A DNA stretch of 63,781 bases, filler included, from Collodictyon triciliatum (Eukaryota), in assembly GCA_043381765.1 (NCBI GenBank). It is 6 parts of 6 records of this genome, joined end to end, with 100 filler letters (N's around TTAATTAATTAA, not from the genome) between each part and the next. Parts side by side here need not be neighbours in the genome. Positions count along the whole stretch, not along the records: positions 13,193 to 26,281 come from JBHJMP010002053.1; 5 more parts are not named here. One strand, given 5' to 3'. Positions 4,800 to 62,546 of the stretch are shown here, in pieces. The stretch's first letter is position 1. Each line of letters opens with the position of its first letter. The translations under genes were made by a program, and so were the position numbers. The notes below the pieces were generated by a model that saw nothing but the letters and a program-made list of their open reading frames with translations, did not search any database and was not told the DNA's origin.

Positions 4800-7700
4800 C
4801 GAATTTCTGGTTATATATTTAAATAAAGACTAATTAATCAAATATATTTATCACAGATTGAATTATGAAACGCACGTTGCAGGAATTTTGGGAGATGTAA
4901 TTCTCGATTCGAAGAAATTATCGCGTCGGAAATTAGTTTTTTTTTCATCTGGTGAGTGCATTCCTATCCTATTGCAACCTATTTCTCAGTATAAGTTGAA
5001 TATTATCAGTTCTACTGATATTTTATCCACCAAACATATGAATGTTCAGCAAATTTCATTTCAAGAATATTCAGTATTAAAGGAATTCTCTAATGGAAGT
5101 TTAATTTTGTGTCAATTTATCAAATATTATTGATTTTTCATGTGATATAATGTTGATACAATGAAAATAATGCATTATTTATAAAAATAAATCAACACAA
5201 ACATATTGCGTAGGAAAAAATGAATGAATTTTTCAGTGCACAATTTATTTTTCAATTCTATTTCATAATTTTTTACATTAACTGTCTTATTTATATTTTT
5301 AACTTTCCTTGTAATAAATCAATCTCATATTCGTAAACCACTTGTCTTTTTGTACACTCATATATCTTGATTCAGTATTTATAATCCTCTCTCATATTCA
5401 ACTTCATATAAACCAGGTAAATAATCTATTATTCAGTATCTCGAGATATTCACCGATAAGCTAAAACGTACAATTGCATATAAAAATGAATTTTGATAGA
5501 TAAGAGTACCATGAGTTTGTGCTTCATATGAGTTGAATCACGAATAAAATTATTTAAAAGAGAATGGAACTATTTGCATATAATCATTGTGACGGCTAGA
5601 ACTTAAGTCATTCCTAAAATTATAAATGCCAGTTCCAAATTTTAAAAAAAATATGTTCTTGGTTGTTGCATTCGTATAAATTATTATTCATTATCAAAAT
5701 GAAAAAAATGTTAGGATAAGAAGAACCATTTATTTGAATCCTCTTAGTGTTAACCATATAGTTACACAGTAATTAATCAAGCAATCAGAGGTTAAAACAA
5801 CCATATTATCAGATAATTTATATTAAATCATTTATTAAAGAAACCCTGTTTGCTTGACAATATCGAATAATTATTGTATGAGAAAAATGAAATCGTCCTT
5901 GAACATAGCTTCCGATAAAATTTGTTCTGGATTTAAAAGTCTAAAATTGAGTTTTTATGAAATCTTCCTTCAGTTAGCTGGATAACTAATTGTTTTAAGA
6001 CTATGCTTACTCATGAAGCACAACCATATGTGTATGGAAATGGCCAAGCGATGAGTGACATCCTAATATTCGGCAAACTCTCATAAACAACTGATTGAAA
6101 CACCAAAATATGTTTTGTGAGAGCTGGGTATCATCTCTAAGAGATTCAGTGATAAGCAATAAGTTTCACTATAGATTTGCATGTATTCATCTGTTTCATC
6201 GTGATTATTTCATTCTCTATAAAAAGGCTCTCAATTGTGGATTCTAATCAACCAACTCCCTTAAAAATCCAATCGTATGTCTGTTTCCATATTAATATTA
6301 TTCATTAAATCAAATCCAAAGCACTAATTAGTTATATCGATCAAAAATTGACTATGTTCTTTTGACTATTAATGGCGATATGTTTTATGTAAATCTTATA
6401 TTTCATTGAACTCTAAAACATGTCATTTTTAAGTTTTTTTGGAACCCAAGATAAAATCAGTGTTTATAAAAAGCTAAAACTCATTATGATACAAGAATAA
6501 AAAAGGTATTGATATTATTCAATTTTCAATCACAATCATTTCAAGAGATATTTTAGAACTGAAAGTTTAGCTATTCAATTGGTTTACATTTCTATCAATG
6601 CAGAAAAATTGAATCCTAGTATTCGAATATTTGATAGAAAAAAGATTAATTTAGATTATCAATATAATTGTATATGCATTAATACTTGTACTCGGCCATA
6701 TTTTGACCAAACAGGAATAAATAGAACAATATCAAGTATTTATTAATAAGATAGAATCACCAATATGAAACAATCATAGAAGACATACTGTATGTGGTGG
6801 ATTAAATAAATAAATCATCATATAAACCAACACAAATATACGACAATATAATTTATGCATAAAAAGGATTTTTTTAATATATTTGAACAATGGTAATCGT
6901 AAAACAACAAAAGGGCGCGAACTGTCTACCAAATCCTCGGTTAGTCGGGGGAACATAAAAATAATACATATCACAAATACCTTTTCATTACCTCTGATTG
7001 ATTTGGAATTGGAAGGGGGAGGGGTGGGTTTGTTGGATTTGATAAATCGACATCTAAATCTTTAAGGGAGAAAATTAAACTAATTTAGATGATATAACAA
7101 GATTAATTATCAAACGTTTCTTTATTGAGCGGTAAACTCACAAATCATTTCACTTGGAGAAACTAACAAGGTCTAGTTAGGTGAGGGATATGGGCGTGAA
7201 GCTGTGGACAAAAGATTGCAGGTCTGTCAAGGGGGAGGGGTGGTGTATCATTCAGCGGCAAACTGGTTTTTGCGGGATATGGTATGTGTTTTTCGATTTG
7301 GATATTATAATGGTTCATATGTAGGTTAGTTGGTTTTTTTAAATTCACATTTGATGCAAAAGTGTATCTATTGATTTAATTAAAACGGAATCTAAAATAC
7401 GGATACCAAGAGTCTGCAGATAATTAAGCTTCTCTAGAAGATACGCAATTTAAAGATTTTTTTTGTAGATTAAATATTCATGAGGTGATACGTAATACGA
7501 TTATTGAAAAATTAACGACGTAGCATGACTATTCCGTAGGCAGACCATTCATCTTGATTAAAATTTATTAGCGAATATATAGCTGATATTATTGTAAGTA
7601 CTACAATATTGATTTCATGTATTTTATGGTAGGATAAAATCTATCAACTGAATAATAAAATAACTAGGATGGCCAGACTCCGATGATAATTCTTAATTTT

Positions 7701-13092: not shown

Positions 13093-13192
13093 NNNNNNNN
13101 NNNNNNNNNNNNNNNNNNNNNNNNNNNNNNNNNNNNTTAATTAATTAANNNNNNNNNNNNNNNNNNNNNNNNNNNNNNNNNNNNNNNNNNNN
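13093..13192. other. Artificial scaffold linker (N44-TTAATTAATTAA-N44); same linker at 26282-26381, 39468-39567, 52639-52738, 62446-62545
   Basis: Identical 100-nt spacer with stops in all six frames; segment lengths decrease along the window (13092, 13089, 13086, 13071, 9707). Confidence 0.97.
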
Positions 13193-13884
13193 TTTTCGTC
13201 TTCTTTTATTTCTTCTTCTTCTTCTTCTTGTTCAGTTTGTGCAATGTCCATATCACTCGGGGCTGGTCCTTCACTTGGTGCTACTCCTTGTAAATTTTGT
13301 GCGTCTTTATCAAATGGGTATTTGTCTGCTGATTCAAATTCATCTTCTTGTTGTTCAGGTGACATCTTTCTTGAAGGGGCTGCTGTACTAGGCTCGCTTA
13401 CGGCTTCTGGAAGAGCAGCACTTTTTTGAGGTGTGCGTGCCGGAGCTGAAGGTTGTACCTCAGGGGGTGCCATCGATTTTTTAGGCATAGAAGGAAGTCG
13501 CTCATCAGAGTATGTCCATATTTCTATTAGCTTCTGTTTGAGATTTTCAATGTCTGGGGTTTGTTGACTTTCCATTCCTAACTTAAATTTTATCCTTTCG
13601 TTTCTGTCGGCTCCATAAGGATACCCTGGAGATCCAACACCCGAAATTGAGTCGATTCTGTTCATTAATGTATATTCTATACTCGCATTTTCTGATTCAT
13701 ATCGAATTTCATCACTATATCCTGATTTTTTGACTGGTAAACCTAATACATACTCTGTAAGCTTACTATCTAGTTTTTCAGGTTTGGCTTTACCGCCTGG
13801 TCTATACATAGAATTAACATACTCTGTAATTCTTTCCCTTCTTTCTTCTAGTTTTTTCCTACTATGCCCCCCTTGTTTGCTCAT
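13193..13884 (-). CDS. Viral hypothetical protein (basic N-terminus, Pro/Ala/Glu-rich C-terminal part), 3'-truncated
   Basis: Open frame from MSKQGGHSRKK (ATG at 13884) into the linker; preceded by the TCT-N10-ATG motif. Confidence 0.65.
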
Positions 13885-13916
13885 GCTATACCCTAGATTT
13901 TTATCTGTGCCCCAGT
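13885..13916. promoter_or_regulatory. Putative bidirectional viral promoter (AGATTTTTATCT core, 13895-13906)
   Basis: Each strand presents TCT exactly 10 nt before an ATG (13884 minus, 13917 plus). Confidence 0.6.
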
Positions 13917-14276
13917 ATGATCGTAAACTACGCGCAACGGGGAGCACGAGGGGTAGGGCGGTTTCTTACTACATCAACTGACAGAGCGATACGACGACTA
14001 GAGGGGCTCAACGACGCATATGTGAGACTTGACGATGCCAGCATGGGACTCGTCGACAATCTGTTGACTAGTACCGGAGTAAAGCCCGCCATCCAGACCA
14101 TCACCAACCCCCTGGTCAGCACTATCAAGGCAGCCAATTACCTCGGTAGGGGGCTGAGCACTCTGGGGGACCTGGACATGAAGAAAATGAATACAAAGAG
14201 TTTAGGCTCTGGCATACACGACCTGGGTCAGGCTTATGCGCTGGCCACTCACGGGCGGGAGCTGCGCTTCAGGTAA
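13917..14276 (+). CDS. Viral hypothetical 119-aa protein, predicted amphipathic helical (possible virion core/membrane-active protein)
   Basis: ATG..TAA ORF divergent from the 13884 gene, upstream of the capsid gene, with the TCT-N10-ATG motif. Confidence 0.65.
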   Translation: MIVNYAQRGARGVGRFLTTSTDRAIRRLEGLNDAYVRLDDASMGLVDNLLTSTGVKPAIQTITNPLVSTIKAANYLGRGLSTLGDLDMKKMNTKSLGSGIHDLGQAYALATHGRELRFR

Positions 14277-14559
14277 AATTCTTCTTCCGCCTCCCCCTTT
14301 ACGAACTATGTGCAAGTATGTGCAAAGTATGTGCAACCAACAAAATTCAGGTTCTTCAAAATCCTTACTTCTTTATGTCTCATTTTATATTTATCTATTA
14401 ACTAAATATACTAAATCACATACTTAACATACTTAACATACTTATTTTTGATTTGTAGTAGGAAAAGGGAATGCAAACATGTTTTCAAAAATCCCCATAC
14501 AGAATAATTTGAGGTCCAACTGTGTGCAACTATGTGGGGGGAGGGAAGAAGAATTTTAC
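14273..14559. repeat. Inverted-repeat-bounded intergenic element with internal short tandem repeats (origin-like or MITE-like)
   Basis: Perfect 16-bp IR gtaaaattcttcttcc (14273-14288) / ggaagaagaattttac (14544-14559); inside are 3x (a)gtatgtgcaa-like, 3x catactta(a) and 2x caact(g/a)tgtg. Confidence 0.8.
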
Positions 14560-14604
14560 AAAGGGGGAGTGCGTTTGATCTGAAATTAATTTCTTGGCAT
14601 ATGC

Positions 14605-16164
14605 ATGGAGTATCCTAGCGAGGCAAAGTACATGAAGATTCGGAACTACAATGACAAAGTTCTGGCCCGTCACACCACCAAAGTAACCCCATTCAATGGC
14701 GGAGAATTCGGCCCTACCCGAGTAGACAGAATCCTGTGGAATATTCCTAGCGAGACTGGCATGGAAATAGACATGGACACATTGATGATTCACTTTGACG
14801 TCACCATTAATCCAGGAACGGGGACAGCTGGCACGCACGATTATTATTTTAATAACTCGATTGAATCGATTATCCAAGCACTTCGGATCAGGAAAGGAAC
14901 GTCTTTTCTCTTGGAAGACATACAGCGGTATAACTACCTCGATTCAATCTTTATGAACTATGTCGCAGATGATTACAACAAATGTGTCGGTGCGGCATTG
15001 ATGGGAATAGGTAATGCTTATGACCGAATTAAAAATCATCGCACAACGGCAACTGACTTTAATTCAGCGTTGGCTGTTAGAAATTATTCGGTTCCTTTGA
15101 GGCTATCAGGAATTTCACAGTATTCGGGTTTGATCAGTACTAGTTTGATTGACAGTGTCGCAGCGTTTCAGATTGAGATAGAACTAGCACCAGCTAACCA
15201 ATGTATGCAGGCATACAATCGAGGCTCAAATGCTAATGCTGGACTAGGAAGCCCGGATGCGACAGCTACTTATACATTATCTAGTTGTTATATTACTTAT
15301 GACTTGGTAAGGATGGCGCCAGAGTATCACGCACAACTTCAATCATCTATATCCCGAGGTGTACCACTTCAGATTCCCTATAAGACGTGGAGAACAAGTT
15401 TGTATAGTTTGGCAGCCAACACCCCCTCTATTGTGTATAATATTAATGACACTGTGAAATCTTTGAATGCTGTATATGTGGCATTTTTTGACACTAATGA
15501 ACAAGGAAAGATAATGATTCCAGGTCGAGACAGAAAACATTTTCCTACGAATCTGAAAACAGCACAACTTCAGTTAGGTTCTTTCTATTATCCTCTCCAG
15601 CCGATGGATTGTAAAAACGGAGCAAGTTAAGTTTTTCTAGAGGTACAGAAGGCAATGGGTCTAACATTTGTACGTAGTGAATATACTGGCCCTTATGGCT
15701 TCAATGGATACGAGTTTGCTAAACCGCCTGTTGATCGCCAATTTGATTTGACTGTAGGATTTACTGATACTCAACCAGTTGCACAAACATTGGGTGGTGT
15801 TAATATTGTGGCACCGTATGGTCGTGTAGGAGTTGAATTTGTTGATACTACGTACAGTCAATTAGAACAAGGAGACGATACGGCATTAGAAAATGACGAT
15901 AAACCAATTGTAGCTAGATTTTTGCGCGAGGGTGTACAGAATCCTTGTGAGTTTATGTTAGCTTTTAACTTGCGTAAAGTATTGGACGTAGCTGAAGGGG
16001 AAATAGTCGGTACAGATATCCAGAGTAGCGGGTCAGGGCTAATGTCTCTAAGATTAGAATTTGAGGGCAACAGCGGAGCAAAGTCATACAATGTTGTGGT
16101 GGCTAGTCTGTACGATGCCGTTCTAGAAATTCAGAGCAACCAGCAAACGTTCCGAGTGGAATAA
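14605..16164 (+). pseudogene. PLV-type major capsid protein (double jelly-roll), about 519 codons, interrupted by one in-frame TAA at 15628-15630
   Basis: The 341-aa and 169-aa ORFs are in the same frame (GAS*VFLEVQKAMG). Motifs: 'PFNGGEFGP..ILWNIP..ID..IHFDV', 'SIIQALRI..LLEDIQRYNYL', 'LQIPYKTW..KSLNAVY', 'FMLAFNL..GTDI..LRLEF..YDAVLEI'; beta-strand-like alternation throughout. Confidence 0.8.
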
Positions 16165-16314
16165 ATTATTGACTAAGTTATGAAAAGAAAATGTGGGTGT
16201 TTTATGATGTGTCTATGTTGGCTTTTTGCTTTACGATTTATTTCTGTATTGCGTCAGGCGTTGGCTTATGTAATTTATTTATGTAAAAAGCTATAATAAT
16301 TTCTCAGTGTATGT

Positions 16315-16464
16315 ATGGAACCAATTACTATTATATCTTTGTTGATGACTTGCATTTTAGTCCTTGAGAGAGTCTGGAAATACACAGTCGATCATTTGAA
16401 GCGGTCAAGTTGTTGCGGGGGTAGTGTTGAATTTAAAAGTGAAAAGGATTTATTACATCCGTAG
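16315..16464 (+). CDS. 49-aa single-pass membrane protein with KRSSCCG motif (virus-type small protein; below the ORF-track cutoff)
   Basis: MEPITIISLLMTCILVLERVWKYTVDHLKRSSCCGGSVEFKSEKDLLHP*; preceded by ATAATTTCT-N10-ATG. Confidence 0.7.
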   Translation: MEPITIISLLMTCILVLERVWKYTVDHLKRSSCCGGSVEFKSEKDLLHP

Positions 16465-16531
16465 GTATAAAATTGAAATGTTGTATAATATTATACCACA
16501 TATCAAAACCTTAGACAGTCAATCAATTACA

Positions 16532-16942
16532 ATGTCCCACGAAAGAATAATTGCTAAAGACGATTATGTGTTTATCGACACTGTATATAATACGGGCACA
16601 AATGATTACGAGATTAAGTTCATAGACGGTGAATGTGACGGCTACACAATTAAGTGGGAAGACTATGCGAAACTTACAGTGTCGAATGGCACCACTAAAG
16701 CAAGGTGGAGGACAACATTTGAAGATGTCATTCAGGTGCATTTACGTTTTAATGGTACTGGCCCAGATGATGTTACTGAAGAAAGAATAAAAGGATGTAT
16801 GGCGACTACCCGAAGTGCTGTTTGGAATATTTTCAATGTGCCGGAGGGAGTATCCGACAGCATGAAGCGCGATAATTTTATGGCGACCAAGATGATGCTT
16901 ATTCGTCTTGTGATGATGCTGCGAGAATTCCACGCTGAATAA
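16532..16942 (+). CDS. Viral hypothetical protein (136 aa from MSHERII)
   Basis: Intronless ORF within the element; AAAATTGA at 16469-16476 upstream; converges with the next ORF across a 6-nt gap. Confidence 0.6.
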   Translation: MSHERIIAKDDYVFIDTVYNTGTNDYEIKFIDGECDGYTIKWEDYAKLTVSNGTTKARWRTTFEDVIQVHLRFNGTGPDDVTEERIKGCMATTRSAVWNIFNVPEGVSDSMKRDNFMATKMMLIRLVMMLREFHAE

Positions 16943-16948
16943 ACTCTG

Positions 16949-17242
16949 TTACCATAAATAATGGTACGCCCAATAACCTGGTGTGTTAGGATCGTCTATG
17001 TTATCCTTTGCGTGTCTTTGTCTGTAGCGTTGTCTTTGTTCTTTGTCGTTAGTGTCTAGATTGCTGTAAAAGCCAAGCTTGTCTTTGTAGTGATTATATC
17101 TTTTGTCGCCAAAGTGAATAGGTTGATAGAGTGTGTCATCTTTGTCCATTAAGTACGCAGTGTACTTTTTGTTTTTCAATTTGGAGACCTTGACGCAATA
17201 CTTAACGCCATTAATCTTAACAATCTTTTTCCATTCGTTCAT
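16949..17242 (-). CDS. Small basic protein of the 'KKY..IHFG..Y..Y.D..R..YR.RH..PGYWA..LW' type seen in giant viruses and PLVs (DUF5754-like, unconfirmed)
   Basis: Motif recognisable in the 97-aa ORF; preceded by TTTTCT-N11-ATG. Confidence 0.75.
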   Translation of the reverse strand: MNEWKKIVKINGVKYCVKVSKLKNKKYTAYLMDKDDTLYQPIHFGDKRYNHYKDKLGFYSNLDTNDKEQRQRYRQRHAKDNIDDPNTPGYWAYHYLW

Positions 17243-17363
17243 ACCTATTTAGGAGAAAAGAATATTCTAGAACCGTCTAGAACATTCCATCTATATCTGG
17301 AATTAACCATATATAGATAGGGATATGTGTATATAAAGGCGAAAAAGCGGGGTTGAGGGGCTG

Positions 17364-17410
17364 GCTGTCGTATTATCACCTATATAATATAGAGGTGATA
17401 ATACGACAGC
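17364..17410. repeat. Perfect 18-bp inverted repeat/hairpin with 11-nt AT-rich loop
   Basis: gctgtcgtattatcacct (17364-17381) + atataatatag + aggtgataatacgacagc (17393-17410). Confidence 0.92.
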
Positions 17411-18199
17411 AATTAATATTAAAATATCAATTATTTCAGAAAAAGGGAAAAAGGGAGGACGAAAAGCTGTTTTATTTATTTACATACCCGGAAAATATAA
17501 TATGCAATCATTTGCTTTGTCACTTGACCACAAATCACAATACAATGCACAGATATGGACACACGTATTGAATTTACTATTATCATAGTAATATCTGCAT
17601 GAAAATACAAAGAATTAGTCACCTACCCTTGTTTTCAACCATTATGCAACACCCATATCAAGCTTGTGTTTTTTTTTCGACATGTGAATGTTGCTCTCGT
17701 TTTATTTTTCAGCCGTTACATTCCAAACTCTTTGACTGGGCAATACACCCAGCCGTCCAAGCGCCTTGAGGTCAAGCCGACAAGTTGTAGTGACGTTCAT
17801 GCTGCATCATGCTGTCCTTTGTTTTAGTCGGTTAGGGGGTTTGGCTTATTTCGCGCTTTTTCCTTTTATATTTGTGTATTTCTTTTGTCTTTTCACGTCT
17901 GCATCATTCTGTGAGTTAATATTGTGACTAGAGCTTTTATTCGAATCATTAATATATGAACTTTTGAGTTGTCCTGAAGCTCATAGAAACTAAACAAACC
18001 TCATATACAGAAGGCTTTAAAACTTGCATCCAGTTCTTCTGGTTCCAACGCTGTAAAGGAAAAACTCCGAGTCGCACGCAAATCCAAGTAAAACCGTGCA
18101 AGGAAGCCGCCTGCAAGTCTGTCAGAGCGGACAGTATTTTTCACACGGGTCGAGAAAGTCGTTTAAAACAAAACACAAAACCCACAGACTCACAGATGC

Positions 18200-18915
18200 G
18201 TCCGCCTCCTTCTTGAAAGCGAACAAACTTTGGGAATAGTCCATCCAATTGCGCTTATCGGATAGCGAAGGCCTTTGCCTGATCGCCTTCCACACTGCAG
18301 AAAACGCCCGAAAGCTTCTGGAGCTGAAGCAAATAAGTTTGAGAGATATTATGACCAACTTCAGCAGAGGCAAACCGACAGAGACCTCGGCGATGTTCTA
18401 CGAACTACCGCTGGGTATGTGGCCGCAACTCCTTCGTGAAGAGCTGAAGCCGTTCAGACCGACCCACATAAACATATAAAAAAGGACAAAGGCTTCTTCA
18501 AAGACACAGCCGTGGTGAAGCTTCTTTGCCAAAAGAACCAGCTCACTGCAAAGTTTACGGTCATGGGCAAAATGAGTCCAAAGCGCATCCTCAAAGAGCG
18601 TCCGCCAGCTGCAAACAAGAAGTGACGAGTAAACGCCTCGCAAAAGAATACACTCGCCAAGCAGGCAAGCAGCAACAGGTCAAGAAGGCCAAGACAGGCA
18701 ATATCAGAGTCCGCAGGACTCACAACAGACACGCGCATACAGCGACAGCGACGATGACATGGAAGGAAATCTCAGTTCCTCTTCAAAAAAATCTCGCATT
18801 CGAGCCCTCCACTGCCAACACCGGACAAGCCTACACATCGCAAGGCTTGGAAGCGCATCCCTCACTTGAAAGTCGCACAAAACCAGAGGTCGCATTCGGG
18901 TCAACATATGGCTAG
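18200..18915 (+). mobile_element. Possible decayed ORF1/Gag-like remnant of a non-LTR retrotransposon
   Basis: GC-richer island; RRM-like 'LIAFHTAENARKLLELKQI..FYELPLGM..LLREELKPF' then degenerate knuckle 'HCKVYGH'; stops and frameshifts. Confidence 0.4.
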
Positions 18916-19493
18916 AAGCGTTTGTGCATGGAGAGCATGCCACCATCATTATTATATTTTCCCCTACTTACCATTCTTCTACTCATCGATGAGAATAAAT
19001 CCCAACAATAGGTTGTATTGACATTCTTTGCCTAAACTAAAGCCCTTTTTGAAACATAGGGAGTGATGCAGTCTCAGCTTTTCTTTCACAATAATAAATA
19101 TTGAAATAGAATGGCTTGTGCATCTTTGTCTTATTATTAATTGAGTTAAAAGAATGGAAGAAAAATGTAATAAGTTCAAATAATTACAAGCTCTCTTCTT
19201 TTTTTTGCTACTCCGAACATGACATCACACCATGAAGAACAGGTGATTATTAAATCGCCCGATGGAGGCAACTGTATGGAGCTTCCTTTTTTTGTTGGAA
19301 AACTATATGAAACAAAGCTGTATTTTGACCATATACACAATTATTTCTCAATTTTAATGACGTTGTGCCTTATACTAATATCAGTAGAGATTAGTGGAAA
19401 TTCCGTTTATTCAAAATTTGAAAGTTGACGGATGATTTCCGTGTGTAAAAGTGAGTTTGAGTTTGAGTTTGAGTCTGAGAATCAGCAAAAGTA

Positions 19494-22400
19494 TTATAGA
19501 GCTATAATCTCTCTCAGATGTGTGATTCTAATCTCGATATCTTGTTTGTGAGGATGTTCCAAACCATAGAAAATCTGAAAGATATCATTCGCCCTCTTGA
19601 AAACTTCCAACGCCTGGGGGTATTTATTTTGAGCCTCCAAGATGATTCCTATGTTATACAAGGACATCGCAACATCGGGATGTGCTTCGCCAAAAACGCC
19701 CAACCGAATCTCGAGTGATTCTTGAGAATAAGCCAGGGCCTTTTCGTTCCTATTAGATTTTGTGTAATTAATGTGGTAGCTAACATATTTATTTTGAAGA
19801 AAACATACATTTTCAGGATACCGTAGACTATTCCGATATTGTTATATAGCATCCCAACATCAGGGTGCATCTTCCCAAACAGCTTTGTTTGAATTTCAAG
19901 TGACTTGTGGTAATATTCCAATGCCTTTTCAAATCTGNNNNNNNNNNNNNNNNNNNNNNNNNNNNNNNNNNNNNNNNNNNNNNNNNNNNNNNNNNNNNNN
20001 NNNNNNNNNNNNNNNNNNNNNNNNNNNNNNNNNNNNNNNNNNNNNNNNNNNNNNNNNNNNNNNNNNNNNNNNNNNNNNNNNNNNNNNNNNNNNNNNNNNN
20101 NNNNNNNNNNNNNNNNNNNNNNNNNNNNNNNNNNNNNNNNNNNNNNNNNNNNNNNNNNNNNNNNNNNNNNNNNNNNNNNNNNNNNNNNNNNNNNNNNNNN
20201 NNNNNNNNNNNNNNNNNNNNNNNNNNNNNNNNNNNNNNNNNNNNNNNNNNNNNNNNNNNNNNNNNNNNNNNNNNNNNNNNNNNNNNNNNNNNNNNNNNNN
20301 NNNNNNNNNNNNNNNNNNNNNNNNNNNNNNNNNNNNNNNNNNNNNNNNNNNNNNNNNNNNNNNNNNNNNNNNNNNNNNNNNNNNNNNNNNNNNNNNNNNN
20401 NNNNNNNNNNNAGTGCTTCTTCATATCTATGATAATAAGGTTAGATAAAATTAAGCCATCTACGTTTTATATCCACTTTTACCTTTCCAAGTCTTTGAAA
20501 ACGTCCCCAATATTTTTATTTGTTGCTGCAACATGATGGCTTGTCTCCCCATATACATCTTTTTGAATTTTTAGTGACGCATAATATAATTCCAGGGCCT
20601 TTTCATGCCTATTGAGCGTTTACATTACTTTCTCTCTTTGCTTCTCTACTAGGGAAAATACATGAAATAATCAAGTATAAAAAAGGGGCAAACTTTCCAA
20701 GACTAGCGTACACAACTCCAATATTGTTTAAAGATGATGCAACATCTGGATGCATCTCCCCAAACATTTTCAATCGGATTTCTAGAGACTTGTTGTAGTG
20801 TTCCAGAGCTTTTTCGAATCTAGATGAATGGTCACATATTTTAACTCTCCAAATTTAACAAACGAAATGATAATAATTTTTTTTTTTTTGGAAATTAACA
20901 GACTCTTGAAGGCCGTAGTAAACCATCCCGATGTTATTATATGAAATCGAAACATCTGGTAGATTATCTCCAGAAATTTTGGACTGAATTTCAAGTGATT
21001 TTTGGTGGTATTGCAGAGCTTGTTCATACCTATCAAAAGATTGTTACAAGTATTTGATAGCTAATTTTAAACCCTAATCAGCTTACTTTCCAAGTTCATT
21101 GTAAATTGTCCCGATATTATTGTACGATGCCACAATGTCAGGGTGTATCTCTTCCAGTACTTGTTGTTGAATTTGAAGCGCTTTTTGATAACACTCTAGA
21201 GCCTCCTCATAACTAATAATCAATCAGATAACCTAAAAGTTCTAGTTATGATTCATTCTATGATATCAATAAAAGAACCTTCCAGCTTCAATGTAAACAG
21301 TTCCAATATTTCCATAAGATGCCGCAACATCTGGATGCATATCACCAAAGACAGTAAGGCGAATTTGAAGAGACTTTTTAAAATACTCCAGAGCCTTTTC
21401 GTGTCTAAAAATGTAGCATATATGATTAAATAAAAAGTGAACAACTGTGCTTTTTTTTAAAAAAACCATTTTCTTGTAAGAAAGCTTAGATGATTATAAA
21501 AACGGCCTTATGTTTGTTTGTAAATAGAAACAATTCAACACACCTTCCAAGGTTCTTATATATAGGTCCCATATGATTGTAGGATGATGCAATATCAGGG
21601 TGGATTTCTCCATACATTTTTTTCCCAAGTTCCAGTGACTTTTGAAATGATTCCAAAGCTTTTTCATTTCTATTATGGTAGCACACTTCAGTGATTCATT
21701 CTGCAATATTTCAGAAATTCAAAGGTACCTCCCCATGAAAGTATATCCACTTCCGATTGTGCGATAAGATGCAATAATATCACGATGAAGCTCTCCAAAA
21801 ACTTTCCGTTTGACATCTAGAGATTTTTGATACCATTCGATCGCCTTTTCATGCCTAATATACCATGATGAAAACTTGTTTACATTCCGAATTAAAATAA
21901 TTTTTATGTGAATAATATATACTCTCCAACGTTTCTGTAGGCATTTCCCAAGGAATTCATATTCTCGCTATTCCAACCTAAATGCTTCACTAGATAAATG
22001 CTTCTCTCTCTCTATTTTTTTTTATCAATTATTGAAAAGTGAACAAACCTTCATCGGTCTCAGTAGAAAGACGGTGATGCAGAATCGGTATCAAAAATGC
22101 ATCCTCTTTGATGTCTTCAAAGTAACGAACCAGTGCATAACCCGTGGAATTCAAAAGCTAAGGAGTAAATTTTAAGCATCTTTTTTTATGATAATTTATT
22201 TTTGTCCTTTGCAAGGACCTAAAACTTACCTTCACCATATCATTGTAAAGGCATTTTTGATCAAATCCGTTCTTATTCAGATATCTCCAACATTCAACAA
22301 ACTCGTGTCGATGGTCTCCGTCCAGCATATTTTCGACCACCTTTAATGGCACGTGAAGTTAAATTAAGTCAATTAATACAACACTTATAACAAACCTGCT

Positions 22401-51905: not shown

Positions 51906-52805
51906 GTCATTTTTGGAATTTAAATGTTTTTACTAAAAAATGTTATAGAGCAACTGGAGTGGACAGTGTGTGTATCTTGACTCTCCAATAATCTATTAAT
52001 TAGTACAATTGATTTCTTGCGCCATTTGTATTAACTATCTATCATTATTTTGATAACAAGAAGGCGCAAGAGAATGCTTTCCACATGTCTTAAGGGATTA
52101 AAATGGCTTGTGGCCTTTTACCTAAATATACTACTTATTATGTACATCTTATTCAATCAAACTATGACGCGATCCTGCCTTCCTTTGCTCCAAACCGATC
52201 TGGCAATCAAAAAAAAAAAAAAAAAAGAGAATATTGTAGTGGCAGAAACACAACGCAACGCGAAACAACACAAAAACATAACGCCTGCGATATCAAATAT
52301 AGAATAACGAACAAAGCAGGCCGCAATCAAAGACTCACTTGTGGTTGCGGCTCTTTTCTTAATTTCTTGATCGTTAGGCGAGAGAGTTGCACATATGCTG
52401 CGCGAGCGGATCTCTTTATTTAAAAGCACCGACCAACAAACGGCAAAATGTGTTTAAAAAAACAAGGGAAAAGAAAAGAGGAGTTGCTTTGTACAAAGAA
52501 AAGAATGCTTGTAAACCACCGAAGTTTGTCTGTCATTTTCTCTTCAGTTGCAAAATGGCAGTCAGCCAAGAGATTGTTTTTGAGCACAACAACCAAAAAA
52601 AAAAAAAAAAACCAAAAAAAAAAAAAAAAAAAAAAAAANNNNNNNNNNNNNNNNNNNNNNNNNNNNNNNNNNNNNNNNNNNNTTAATTAATTAANNNNNN
52701 NNNNNNNNNNNNNNNNNNNNNNNNNNNNNNNNNNNNNNATTAAAAATTTTTTTTCTTGCTCCATTACTAACCCAAAAAATTAGAAAAAAAAAAAAAATTT
52801 CTTTG

Positions 52806-62445: not shown

Positions 62446-62546
62446 NNNNNNNNNNNNNNNNNNNNNNNNNNNNNNNNNNNNNNNNNNNNTTAATTAATTA
62501 ANNNNNNNNNNNNNNNNNNNNNNNNNNNNNNNNNNNNNNNNNNNNT

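What the first reader, a model, noticed from the sequence alone, without database searches (positions are those of the whole stretch)
13885..17256. Shared W-rich-TCT-N10/11-ATG motif upstream of five viral genes: candidate late promoter read by a helper giant virus
Seen: aaaaaTCT-N10-ATG (13884, minus), tttttaTCT-N10-ATG (13917), taattTCT-N10-ATG (capsid, 14605), taattTCT-N10-ATG (16315) and tttTCT-N11-ATG (17242, minus). The spacing is nearly fixed. Knowledge: the virophage mavirus shares an AT-flanked TCTA late promoter just upstream of start codons with its helper CroV. Inference: this element may be transcribed by a co-infecting giant virus, i.e. it may be a dormant virophage-like parasite or defence element.
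Basis: partly seen in the sequence, partly recalled or inferred. Interest (0 to 1): 0.8.

Follow-up and report, generated by a model that had tools for sequence, protein, structure and literature searches.

The report
Conserved start-proximal promoter of a polinton-like virus
A short A/T-rich signal ending in TCT sits exactly 10-11 bases before the start of nearly every gene in this decayed virus fragment and in its free-living freshwater relatives, so it is a real gene-switch signal of a kind already known from virophages, but which polymerase reads it is not shown.

Summary
In the viral fragment (13193-17420) the motif ([>=4 of 5 W]TCT-N10/11-ATG) marks 5 of 6 gene starts and 0 of 153 other ATGs. 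The rest of the window has it at 47 of 2243 ATGs.

It replicates in six metagenome relatives (capsid 53-77% identical): 13 of 24 gene starts against 7 of 764 other ATGs. TCT peaks sharply at -13.

The divergent gene pair shares a 31-33-nt spacer with a central AGA-W5/6-TCT palindrome in three genomes.

The genes belong to a polinton-like virus: the capsid protein folds as a double jelly-roll.

This copy is decayed: nonsense codon in the capsid gene, a 287-bp insert, and truncation by the scaffold end.

Best reading: a lineage-conserved core promoter/initiator of the TCTA class known from mavirus/CroV. Reading by a giant virus is plausible but untested. The exact form is absent from 80 IMG/VR loci, giant-virus bins included. 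A looser TCT N10-14 form is only about twofold enriched in 17 large mimivirid-like contigs.

The scan noted similar signals before, in e1-7200804 (same genome) and e1-7769700 (another genome).

The parts
13193..13884 (-). N-terminal 230 codons of a large, low-complexity protein ('big(-)'). Its far end is cut by the scaffold edge and N spacer.
   Evidence: ORF. Spacer N44-TTAATTAATTAA-N44 at 13093-13192. Same position and orientation as the 414-1015-aa genes in L004-L007. No Pfam or PHROG family.
13885..13916 (.). 32-nt bidirectional intergenic promoter. AGA (13895-97) and TCT (13904-06) flank T5A, and each lies 10 nt from its ATG.
   Evidence: Read from the sequence. Same layout in L005 (AGAAAATTTCT, 31 nt) and L006 (AGAAATATTTCT, 33 nt).
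13917..14276 (+). orf119, a conserved small protein always just upstream of the capsid gene.
   Evidence: Homologues of 114-122 aa in L005, L006 and L007. No Pfam family.
14273..14559 (.). 287-bp insert with 24-nt inverted ends (88% complementary), between the end of orf119 and the capsid promoter.
   Evidence: Inverted repeat I8. In L005, L006 and L007 the gap from orf119 to the capsid gene is about 20-24 nt. A 93%-capsid relative has 272 other letters at this place (table 5).
14584..14604 (+). Capsid-gene promoter: aattaatt-TCT (14592-94) then N10.
   Evidence: TCT-N10-ATG precedes the capsid gene in 5 of 5 genomes whose upstream DNA is held (WIN, L004-L007).
14605..16164 (+). Major capsid protein gene (519 codons) with an in-frame TAA at 15628-15630.
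   Evidence: 41 homologues, most 510-552 aa, covering 100% of the query. 28 of 29 aligned homologues have Q at position 342 and one has H. AF2 model of the 93% homologue: pLDDT 79.3, pTM 0.82. Foldseek hits to SGIV, PBCV-1, mavirus and Sputnik capsid proteins, E 1e-15 to 1e-11.
16290..16314 (+). orf49 promoter: ataataatt-TCT (16302-04) then N10.
   Evidence: Same motif before the orf49 homologues in L002 and L005.
16315..16464 (+). orf49, a small protein with a hydrophobic N-terminus and a CCGG motif.
   Evidence: Conserved in L002, L003, L005 and L006.
16478..16942 (+). orf154, the only gene without the motif. The likely true start is ATG 16532, judged from the L003 homologue.
   Evidence: Motif absent in 0 of 3 homologues.
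16949..17242 (-). DUF5754-family protein (97 aa).
   Evidence: Pfam PF19058, E 3.3e-5, 24.3 bits, below the 27.4-bit cut-off. Profile search: 387 clusters at E<=0.001. Homologues in 80 IMG/VR loci.
17243..17262 (-). DUF5754 promoter: on the minus strand tattctttTCT then N11 then ATG (AGA at 17254-56 on the + strand).
17263..17410 (.). Non-coding end region homologous to the end of contig L005, closing with a 23+23-nt palindrome at 17364-17410. Probable end of the viral DNA.
   Evidence: Alignment with L005. Palindrome I7.

Best explanation
The motif is a genuine core promoter/initiator element, conserved in one lineage of freshwater polinton-like viruses (PLVs).

Anatomy, shown here:
- An A/T-rich tract at about -23 to -14 runs into T-T-T-C-T (sometimes T-G-T) at -15 to -11.
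- A spacer of 10 nt (sometimes 11) follows, then the ATG.
- Each gene has its own copy, even where intergenic spacers are only 16-33 nt.
- The divergent gene pair uses two copies fused into a palindrome, AGA-W5/6-TCT.

Mechanism, inferred:
- The element places an RNA polymerase so that transcription starts at or just after TCT, giving leaders of about 10 nt.
- orf154, which lacks the motif, is probably co-transcribed with orf49.

Who reads it, inferred by analogy with mavirus/CroV and from the very compact, gene-by-gene layout:
- Most likely the transcription machinery of a co-infecting giant virus. I put this at about 45%.
- Host RNA polymerase II is at about 35%.

The copy in the window is an endogenous, decaying fragment, not an intact provirus. 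The confidence given (0.8) is for promoter/initiator function, not for the giant-virus sub-claim.
For: Chance and specificity:
- Window: 5 of 6 gene starts against 0 of 153 other ATGs. Background is 47 of 2243. The look-elsewhere Monte Carlo gives P = 0.0016.

Replication in relatives L002-L007:
- 12 of 23 gene starts against 8 of 765 other ATGs, p = 1.4e-15.
- 13 of 24 against 7 of 764 after adding the L005 orf119 start.
- 16 of 24 if TGT is allowed as the core.
- TCT begins at -13 in 10 of 23 relatives' starts, at -14 in 2, and nowhere else more than twice.
- Positions -21 to -14 are at least 86% A/T in 29 starts.

By gene family (T[C/G]T form): big(-) 5 of 5, orf119 4 of 4, capsid 5 of 5, orf49 3 of 5, orf154 0 of 3, DUF5754 1 of 2. 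The motif persists although the capsid proteins are only 53-77% identical.

Layout:
- Palindromic bidirectional spacer in WIN, L005 and L006.

Negative control:
- The same pipeline on 80 unrelated IMG/VR loci gives 18 of 839 gene starts against 464 of 28334 other ATGs.

Same architecture with other spacings in other small viruses:
- L030 12 of 12, L026 11 of 11, L029 10 of 11 and L025 6 of 6 gene starts carry A-rich-TCT at N13-17.
- The distant PLV L001 has it at 5 of 9 starts at N14-18, against 7 of 271 other ATGs.

Giant-virus plausibility:
- In 17 contigs of 43-170 kb, the mimivirid early motif AAAATTGA lies within 60 nt of 45 of 209 gene starts, against 52 of 5000 random 60-mers.
- In the same contigs W-rich TCT at N10-14 precedes 20 of 209 gene starts, against 332 of 7364 other ATGs (p = 0.0017).

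Literature, passages read: virophage promoters match the late promoter of their giant virus, and only the endogenous elements with the CroV motif are reactivated by CroV (PMC8547959, PMC10945749).
Against: - No transcription start was mapped.
- The only RNA-library evidence is one assembled contig of a relative (2610 nt, run X6). It runs 107 nt beyond 14571, about 141 nt upstream of the capsid ATG, and spans three genes. That does not fit a single start at -13, and DNA in the library is not excluded.
- No giant virus with the N10/11 form was found.
- The twofold enrichment in large contigs was picked from six spacing bins. It includes near-duplicate contigs (L077/L079; L086/L089/L090), so it is weak.
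- A follows TCT in only 8 of 18 hits, so this is not the CroV tetramer.
- 8 of 24 relatives' gene starts have neither TCT nor TGT at the right place.
- Two capsid starts (L004, L005) were set by alignment to other capsid N-termini instead of by the first ATG. Without them the first count is 10 of 23.
- Some PLVs express capsid genes with no giant virus detected (PMC12220804, passages), so a host polymerase can drive PLV genes.
Confidence: 0.8

Rival explanations
1. The element is read by host RNA polymerase II. It would be an initiator-type core promoter with very short leaders, and the virus would replicate autonomously in the nucleus like Tetraselmis virus TsV-N1.
For: - Capsid genes of endogenous PLVs are transcribed in cultures with no detectable giant virus (PMC12220804 and PMC10120064, passages read).
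- The exact motif was not found in any giant-virus contig examined.
- The element lies in a host scaffold next to intron-split TPR exons.
Against: - An A/T tract ending 11 nt before the ATG leaves no room for a TATA-to-start distance of 25-30 nt.
- Two promoters share 31-33 nt in the divergent pair, which is very tight for two pre-initiation complexes (established knowledge, inference).
- Outside the viral fragment the motif shows no link to ORF starts: 5 of 200. True host gene starts could not be identified, however.
Confidence: 0.35
2. The conserved block is not a promoter. It would act at the RNA level, as a leader or translation signal, or as a processing or termination signal of the upstream gene.
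For: - The distance is fixed relative to the ATG, not to any mapped transcription start.
- In the orf49 case the A/T tract overlaps the capsid gene's stop codon (gaaTAAatttct).
- The RNA-library contig reads through three genes.
Against: - The motif occurs on both strands of the divergent spacer, where no upstream gene ends.
- The palindromic DNA symmetry AGA-W-TCT argues for a DNA-level signal.
- The N10 spacer itself is poorly conserved.
Confidence: 0.07
3. Chance or base-composition artefact of AT-rich intergenic DNA.
For: - TCT with A/T flanks is a low-information pattern, seen at 2.1% of ATGs in this window.
- Closely related loci share ancestry, so the counts are not fully independent.
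Against: - 0 of 153 other ATGs in the fragment carry it.
- The Monte Carlo gives P = 0.0016.
- It replicates at p = 2.7e-17.
- It recurs before non-homologous genes within one genome: five families in the window.
- AT-richer viral loci do not show it: 18 of 839 gene starts, and 0 of 16 in the 36-41% capsid clade L008-L012.
Confidence: 0.01

Closest known systems
Mavirus / type-4 endogenous mavirus-like elements and the CroV late promoter 'TCTA' flanked by AT-rich DNA (PMC8547959, PMC10945749, PMC5294985; passages read)
   Same: A short TCT-centred core with A/T flanks lies directly upstream of the start codons of most genes of a small capsid-encoding virus that can sit in a protist genome.
   Different: - The core is TTTCT or T[C/G]T; A follows TCT in only 8 of 18 sites.
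- The spacing to the ATG is strict, at 10-11 nt.
- The virus is a PLV with a different capsid lineage, not a lavidavirus.
- No helper virus is known.
- I could not read the distance of TCTA from the ATG in CroV, because the CroV paper is not held.
Type-specific promoter motifs of other endogenous mavirus-like element types in Cafeteria (PMC8547959, passage; its figure supplement was not seen)
   Same: Each lineage of small integrated viruses carries its own conserved upstream motif, taken to reflect a specific giant-virus partner.
   Different: The host and virus lineage differ. Whether any of those motifs equals this one could not be checked, because figures and supplements were not seen.
Gezel-14T (PgVV) PLV using the mimivirid early motif AAAATTGA (bioRxiv 10.1101/2022.07.28.501842, passages read)
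   Same: A PLV whose gene promoters copy a giant-virus promoter.
   Different: That motif is the early octamer and is found before only 5 genes. Here AAAATTGA occurs once (16469), which is chance level: 14 in the whole window. It is not conserved in L002 or L003.
Poxvirus late promoters: T-rich core, short spacer, TAAAT initiator at the start codon (PMC5294985, passage read)
   Same: A bipartite, very compact, gene-by-gene promoter that abuts the ATG and gives minimal leaders.
   Different: The initiator sequence is different, and the poxvirus initiator overlaps the ATG. The resemblance is in how it works, not in membership.
Uncultured small viruses in IMG/VR (L025, L026, L029, L030; also L034, L020, L001), found here
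   Same: W-rich tract, then TCT, then a fixed spacer, then ATG, before nearly every gene: 39 of 40 starts in the first four. The first six carry DUF5754; L001 was fetched with the capsid profile. One 477-aa protein sits in capsid-like Preplasmiviricota clusters, which is a feature-search lead only.
   Different: The upstream tract is poly-A, the spacer is 13-17 nt, and the capsid proteins are unrelated at profile level (hhalign probability 0.1).

Membership tests
Polinton-like virus (genome fragment) | Double jelly-roll major capsid protein | tested here: met
   AF2 model pLDDT 79.3, pTM 0.82. Foldseek probability 1.00 to iridovirus, PBCV-1, mavirus and Sputnik capsid proteins.
Polinton-like virus (genome fragment) | Relatives on small (about 15-40 kb) virus-like contigs with conserved gene order | tested here: met
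   41 homologues on contigs up to 17,215 nt. The same gene order big(-)/orf119/capsid/orf49/orf154/DUF5754 appears across L002-L007.
Polinton-like virus (genome fragment) | Other hallmark genes (penton, A32-type ATPase, protease, replication and integration genes) | tested here: inconclusive
   None lies in the 4.2 kb visible, and Pfam finds none in L003, L005 or L006 proteins beyond a weak GIY-YIG match. The element is cut at 13193.
CroV/mavirus-type late promoter | TCTA tetramer core | tested here: not met
   TCT is present, but the next base is A8, T4, C4, G2 among 18 hits.
CroV/mavirus-type late promoter | A/T-rich flanks, placed directly upstream of most start codons | tested here: met
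CroV/mavirus-type late promoter | Same motif before late genes of the helper giant virus | tested here: inconclusive
   No helper is known. The exact form is not enriched in 80 IMG/VR loci. The looser form precedes 20 of 209 gene starts against 332 of 7364 other ATGs in 17 large contigs.
CroV/mavirus-type late promoter | Expression switched on by giant-virus infection | not testable with these tools
   Only assembled contigs of public runs were available.
Mimivirid early promoter (AAAATTGA), as in Gezel-14T | Octamer upstream of several genes | tested here: not met
   One copy in the fragment, not conserved in relatives.

The most novel reading that the evidence does not exclude
This PLV lineage is the virophage-like partner of an undiscovered giant virus of a poorly studied freshwater protist. 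That virus's late genes would carry W-rich TTTCT about 10 nt before the ATG, and endogenous copies would act, or once acted, as an inducible anti-giant-virus defence. The motif would then serve as a search key for that giant virus in freshwater metagenomes.
Probability: 0.3. Interest if true: 0.7.

Novelty: new member of a known kind. Interest (0 to 1): 0.4.

Why it matters
Lineage-specific promoters are the best sequence clue to which giant virus a virophage or PLV depends on. In Cafeteria they decide which endogenous elements wake up on infection (PMC10945749, passages read).

A sharply defined motif for an uncharacterised freshwater PLV clade gives three things:
- a concrete key for pairing it with giant-virus bins;
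- a concrete key for annotating true start codons in such viruses;
- a simple target for transcription-start mapping.

The principle itself is already established, and this particular copy is a fossil.

Tried and rejected
Searches for more relatives or context:
- The window's own genome is not held.
- The capsid protein found no close relative in IMG/VR. Its profile found one distant relative and none in prokaryote genome contigs.
- DUF5754 as a single protein and as a 3-sequence alignment found no IMG/VR locus. A 48-sequence alignment was too diverse for the tool. A 14-sequence one worked.

Pattern scan:
- The bidirectional promoter pattern was first rejected for having too few specified bases.
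- The stricter AGAAAWWTTTCT form found 2 matches, both inside long ORFs, so they are chance.

RNA evidence:
- Public runs hold only small shares of the stretch.
- Laid contigs cannot show a transcript start. The X6 contig is therefore neither for nor against a start at TCT.
- Parts without cover mean nothing.

Family and structure libraries:
- No Rfam family in 13193-17600, so the insert is not a recognisable group I intron of the kind reported upstream of capsid genes in Rhodomonas PLVs (PMC12220804).
- The capsid profile has no sequence match in the PDB.
- Pfam gave no match at or above its curated cut-off for any of the 7 proteins, and no match at all for 5 of them. PHROGs gave no match at E<=0.001 for 6 of 7.

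Other readings considered:
- Reading TAA as Q (code 6) to rescue the capsid gene is rejected. The gene also ends in TAA where all homologues end. Code 6 opens frames on both strands at random. Host ORFs of 419 and 660 aa are open under the standard code.
- AAAATTGA at 16469 is at chance level.

Papers:
- The CroV genome paper is not held.
- Searches, and the passages read from them, gave no description of a TTTCT-N10 motif in PLVs.
- Their figures and supplements were not seen and may list similar motifs: EMALE Figure 3 supplement 5, Halocafeteria Fig. S7/Table S6, and Antarctic Supplementary data 3.
Full report
WHAT THE WINDOW IS

The window is a chain of separate scaffolds joined by N44-TTAATTAATTAA-N44 spacers. 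The finding lies at the very start of the scaffold 13193-26281, so the viral DNA is cut at 13193.

From 13193 to about 17410 there are six tightly packed genes:
- a large low-complexity protein on the minus strand, of which only the first 230 codons are present;
- orf119;
- a 519-codon capsid gene;
- orf49;
- orf154;
- a 97-aa DUF5754 protein on the minus strand (Pfam E 3.3e-5, below the curated cut-off).

Further along the same contiguous stretch lie TPR exons split by introns (19497-21469). The fragment therefore sits in eukaryotic DNA. I did not test that.

IS IT VIRAL

The capsid protein has 41 homologues, most 510-552 aa long, on metagenome contigs of up to 17.2 kb. Pfam and the PDB give no sequence match.

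An AlphaFold2 model of the 93%-identical intact homologue has pLDDT 79.3 and pTM 0.82. It matches double jelly-roll capsid proteins of an iridovirus, PBCV-1, mavirus and Sputnik at Foldseek E 1e-15 to 1e-11.

Gene order is conserved in six metagenome loci, L002-L007, whose capsid proteins are 53-77% identical to the window's. This is a polinton-like virus (PLV) lineage, seen mainly in freshwater metagenome runs.

THE OBSERVATION

All five sites are exactly as described.
- It marks 5 of 6 gene starts and 0 of the 153 other ATGs in the fragment (Fisher p = 7.5e-9).
- It marks 47 of 2243 ATGs (2.1%) in the rest of the window, and 5 of 200 first ATGs of ORFs >=45 aa there.
- The outside hits are scattered and mostly open ORFs of a few codons.

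The motif was chosen after looking, so I ran a look-elsewhere control. Among 20,000 random sets of six ATGs, any 3-mer at any offset (+-1) was shared by >=5 of 6 in 31 sets (P = 0.0016).

REPLICATION IN RELATIVES

Gene starts in L002-L007 were taken as the first ATG of non-overlapping ORFs >=45 aa, with an in-frame stop upstream and >=40 nt of upstream DNA.

Rows dropped:
- the 5'-cut capsid ORFs of L002 and L003;
- the 5'-open ORF L006:112-267;
- in the window, the second half of the capsid gene.

For L004 and L005 I used the capsid ATG that aligns with the other capsid N-termini, not an in-frame ATG 36 and 69 nt upstream.

Results:
- 12 of 23 gene starts against 8 of 765 other ATGs (p = 1.4e-15). 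Without the two corrected starts this would be 10 of 23.
- After adding the L005 orf119 start, found later: 13 of 24 against 7 of 764 (p = 2.7e-17).
- TCT begins at -13 in 10 of the 23 starts, at -14 in 2, and at no other offset more than twice.
- Three more starts have TGT at the same place, giving 16 of 24.

By gene family, in the T[C/G]T form:
- large minus-strand gene 5 of 5;
- orf119 4 of 4;
- capsid 5 of 5;
- orf49 3 of 5;
- orf154 0 of 3;
- DUF5754 1 of 2. The L005 copy has TCT six nt before its second ATG.

Positions -21 to -14 are at least 86% A/T, followed by TTTCT.

A NEW DETAIL: THE BIDIRECTIONAL SPACER

The divergent pair, large gene and orf119, is separated by only 31-33 nt in the window, L005 and L006. 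The centre of that spacer is AGA-W5/6-TCT:
- AGATTTTTATCT in the window;
- AGAAAATTTCT in L005;
- AGAAATATTTCT in L006.

Each half lies 10-11 nt from its own ATG. This DNA-level symmetry, and the recurrence before unrelated genes in one genome, argue for a promoter and not for an RNA signal or inherited sequence.

SPECIFICITY, AND THE SAME ARCHITECTURE ELSEWHERE

- The more distant capsid clade (L008-L012, 36-41% identity) has the motif at 0 of 16 starts.
- The DUF5754 family is large: 387 clusters.
- 80 IMG/VR loci that encode DUF5754, including giant-virus bins, served as an unrelated test set. The N10/11 motif is not enriched there: 18 of 839 gene starts against 464 of 28334 other ATGs.

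A scan over all spacings showed that several small viral contigs use the same design with a longer spacer. A poly-A tract, TCT, 13-17 nt and then ATG precede 12 of 12 (L030), 11 of 11 (L026), 10 of 11 (L029) and 6 of 6 (L025) gene starts. L034 (6 of 9) and L020 (6 of 13) show it more weakly. The IMG/VR PLV L001, whose capsid is 25% identical, has W-rich TCT at N14-18 before 5 of 9 starts, against 7 of 271 other ATGs.

So 'A/T tract + TCT + fixed spacer + ATG' is a recurrent promoter design in small capsid-encoding viruses of protists. Mavirus's TCTA is the published example (PMC8547959, PMC5294985, passages).

WHO READS IT

This is the untested part.

For a giant virus:
- the analogy with mavirus/CroV, and the finding that only endogenous elements with the CroV motif respond to CroV (PMC10945749, passages);
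- the extreme compactness, which leaves no room for a TATA-type Pol II promoter (inference);
- a weak signal in 17 large contigs (43-170 kb). These are mimivirid-like, since AAAATTGA lies within 60 nt of 45 of 209 gene starts against 52 of 5000 random 60-mers. In them, W-rich TCT at N10-14 precedes 20 of 209 gene starts against 332 of 7364 other ATGs (p = 0.0017). This includes the DUF5754 genes of L086, L089 and L090.

That bin was chosen from six, and several contigs are near-duplicates, so the signal only shows that such motifs exist in giant viruses.

Against a giant virus:
- no giant virus with the exact motif was found;
- PLV capsid genes can be transcribed without a detectable giant virus (PMC12220804, PMC10120064, passages);
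- the only RNA-library evidence is one 2610-nt contig of a relative. It covers capsid-orf49-orf154 and reaches about 141 nt upstream of the capsid ATG. It cannot show a start and may contain DNA.

My odds are: promoter/initiator function 0.8; read by a giant virus 0.45; read by host Pol II 0.35.

STATE OF THIS COPY

- The capsid gene has TAA at codon 342, where 28 of 29 aligned homologues have Q and one has H.
- A variant genetic code does not explain this.
- A 287-bp segment with 24-nt inverted ends (14273-14559) separates orf119 from the capsid promoter. L005, L006 and L007 have about 20-24 nt there.
- The 93% relative has 272 different letters at the same place, so this is a variable insert. 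It matches no Rfam family.
- The other four complete genes have the lengths of their homologues.

The copy is better called a decaying endogenous fragment than a dormant provirus.

COMPARISON AND NOVELTY

The principle is known: small viruses of protists carry lineage-specific, start-proximal promoters that may mirror those of a giant virus. My searches and the passages read gave no description of this TTTCT-N10 form or of the palindromic bidirectional spacer. Figures and supplements of those papers were not seen.

The scan itself noted similar signals before on other DNA: e1-7200804 in the same genome and e1-7769700 in another genome. I did not test either note.

VERDICT

It is a new member of a known kind. 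Interest 0.4.

Noticed in passing
window 13093-13192, 26282-26381, 39468-39567, 52639-52738, 62446-62545: The window is a chain of separate scaffolds joined by N44-TTAATTAATTAA-N44 spacers. Features on either side of a spacer are unlinked.
   Followed up: yes
window 15628-15630: In-frame TAA in the capsid gene, where 28 of 29 aligned homologues have Q and one has H. A single-base difference from CAA would give it, and no variant genetic code is indicated.
   Followed up: yes
window 14273-14559: 287-bp AT-rich insert with 24-nt inverted ends and TA on both flanks, containing short repeats (tatgtgcaa, catacttaa). It is absent from L005-L007 and replaced by 272 unlike letters in a 93%-capsid relative. 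A near-identical copy of both junctions occurs in run X1. No Rfam match.
   Followed up: partly
window 17364-17410: 23+23-nt palindrome at the point where the homologous contig L005 ends, so it may be the viral genome terminus. A 1913-nt contig of run X2 holds the palindrome alone in another context, so it may be a repeat.
   Followed up: partly
window 17263-17290 and L005 about 6137-6148: GAATGTTCTAGA, containing the palindrome TTCTAGAA (present twice in the window), lies about 35-45 nt upstream of the DUF5754 gene in both genomes. It may be a second regulatory or terminal element.
   Followed up: no
window 16165-16314: About 135 extra bases lie between the capsid stop and orf49; relatives have 16-17 nt there. 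They hold a 38-codon Cys-rich ORF (16180-16296) whose ATG sits in the context that precedes orf49 in L006.
   Followed up: no
window 16469-16476: One copy of the mimivirid early octamer AAAATTGA, 56 nt upstream of the probable true start of orf154, the only gene without the TCT motif. It is at chance level (14 copies in the window) and not conserved in L002 or L003.
   Followed up: yes
L025, L026, L029, L030 (IMG/VR contigs of 4-23 kb): A family of small viruses with a strongly conserved promoter, A8-10 TCT (T/A) then about 13-16 A/T-rich nt then ATG, before 39 of 40 gene starts. It has two paralogous genes of about 470 aa that a feature search places among capsid-like Preplasmiviricota clusters.
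   Followed up: partly
L085, L086, L089, L090 (contigs of 32-80 kb, three of them labelled giant-virus bins): The DUF5754 homologue and a neighbouring 118-aa gene are each preceded by W-rich TCT 11-13 nt before the ATG.
   Followed up: partly
window 19497-21469: Intron-split TPR_10/TPR_12 repeat exons on the minus strand form a 132-nt direct-repeat family. This is the host gene next to the viral fragment.
   Followed up: partly
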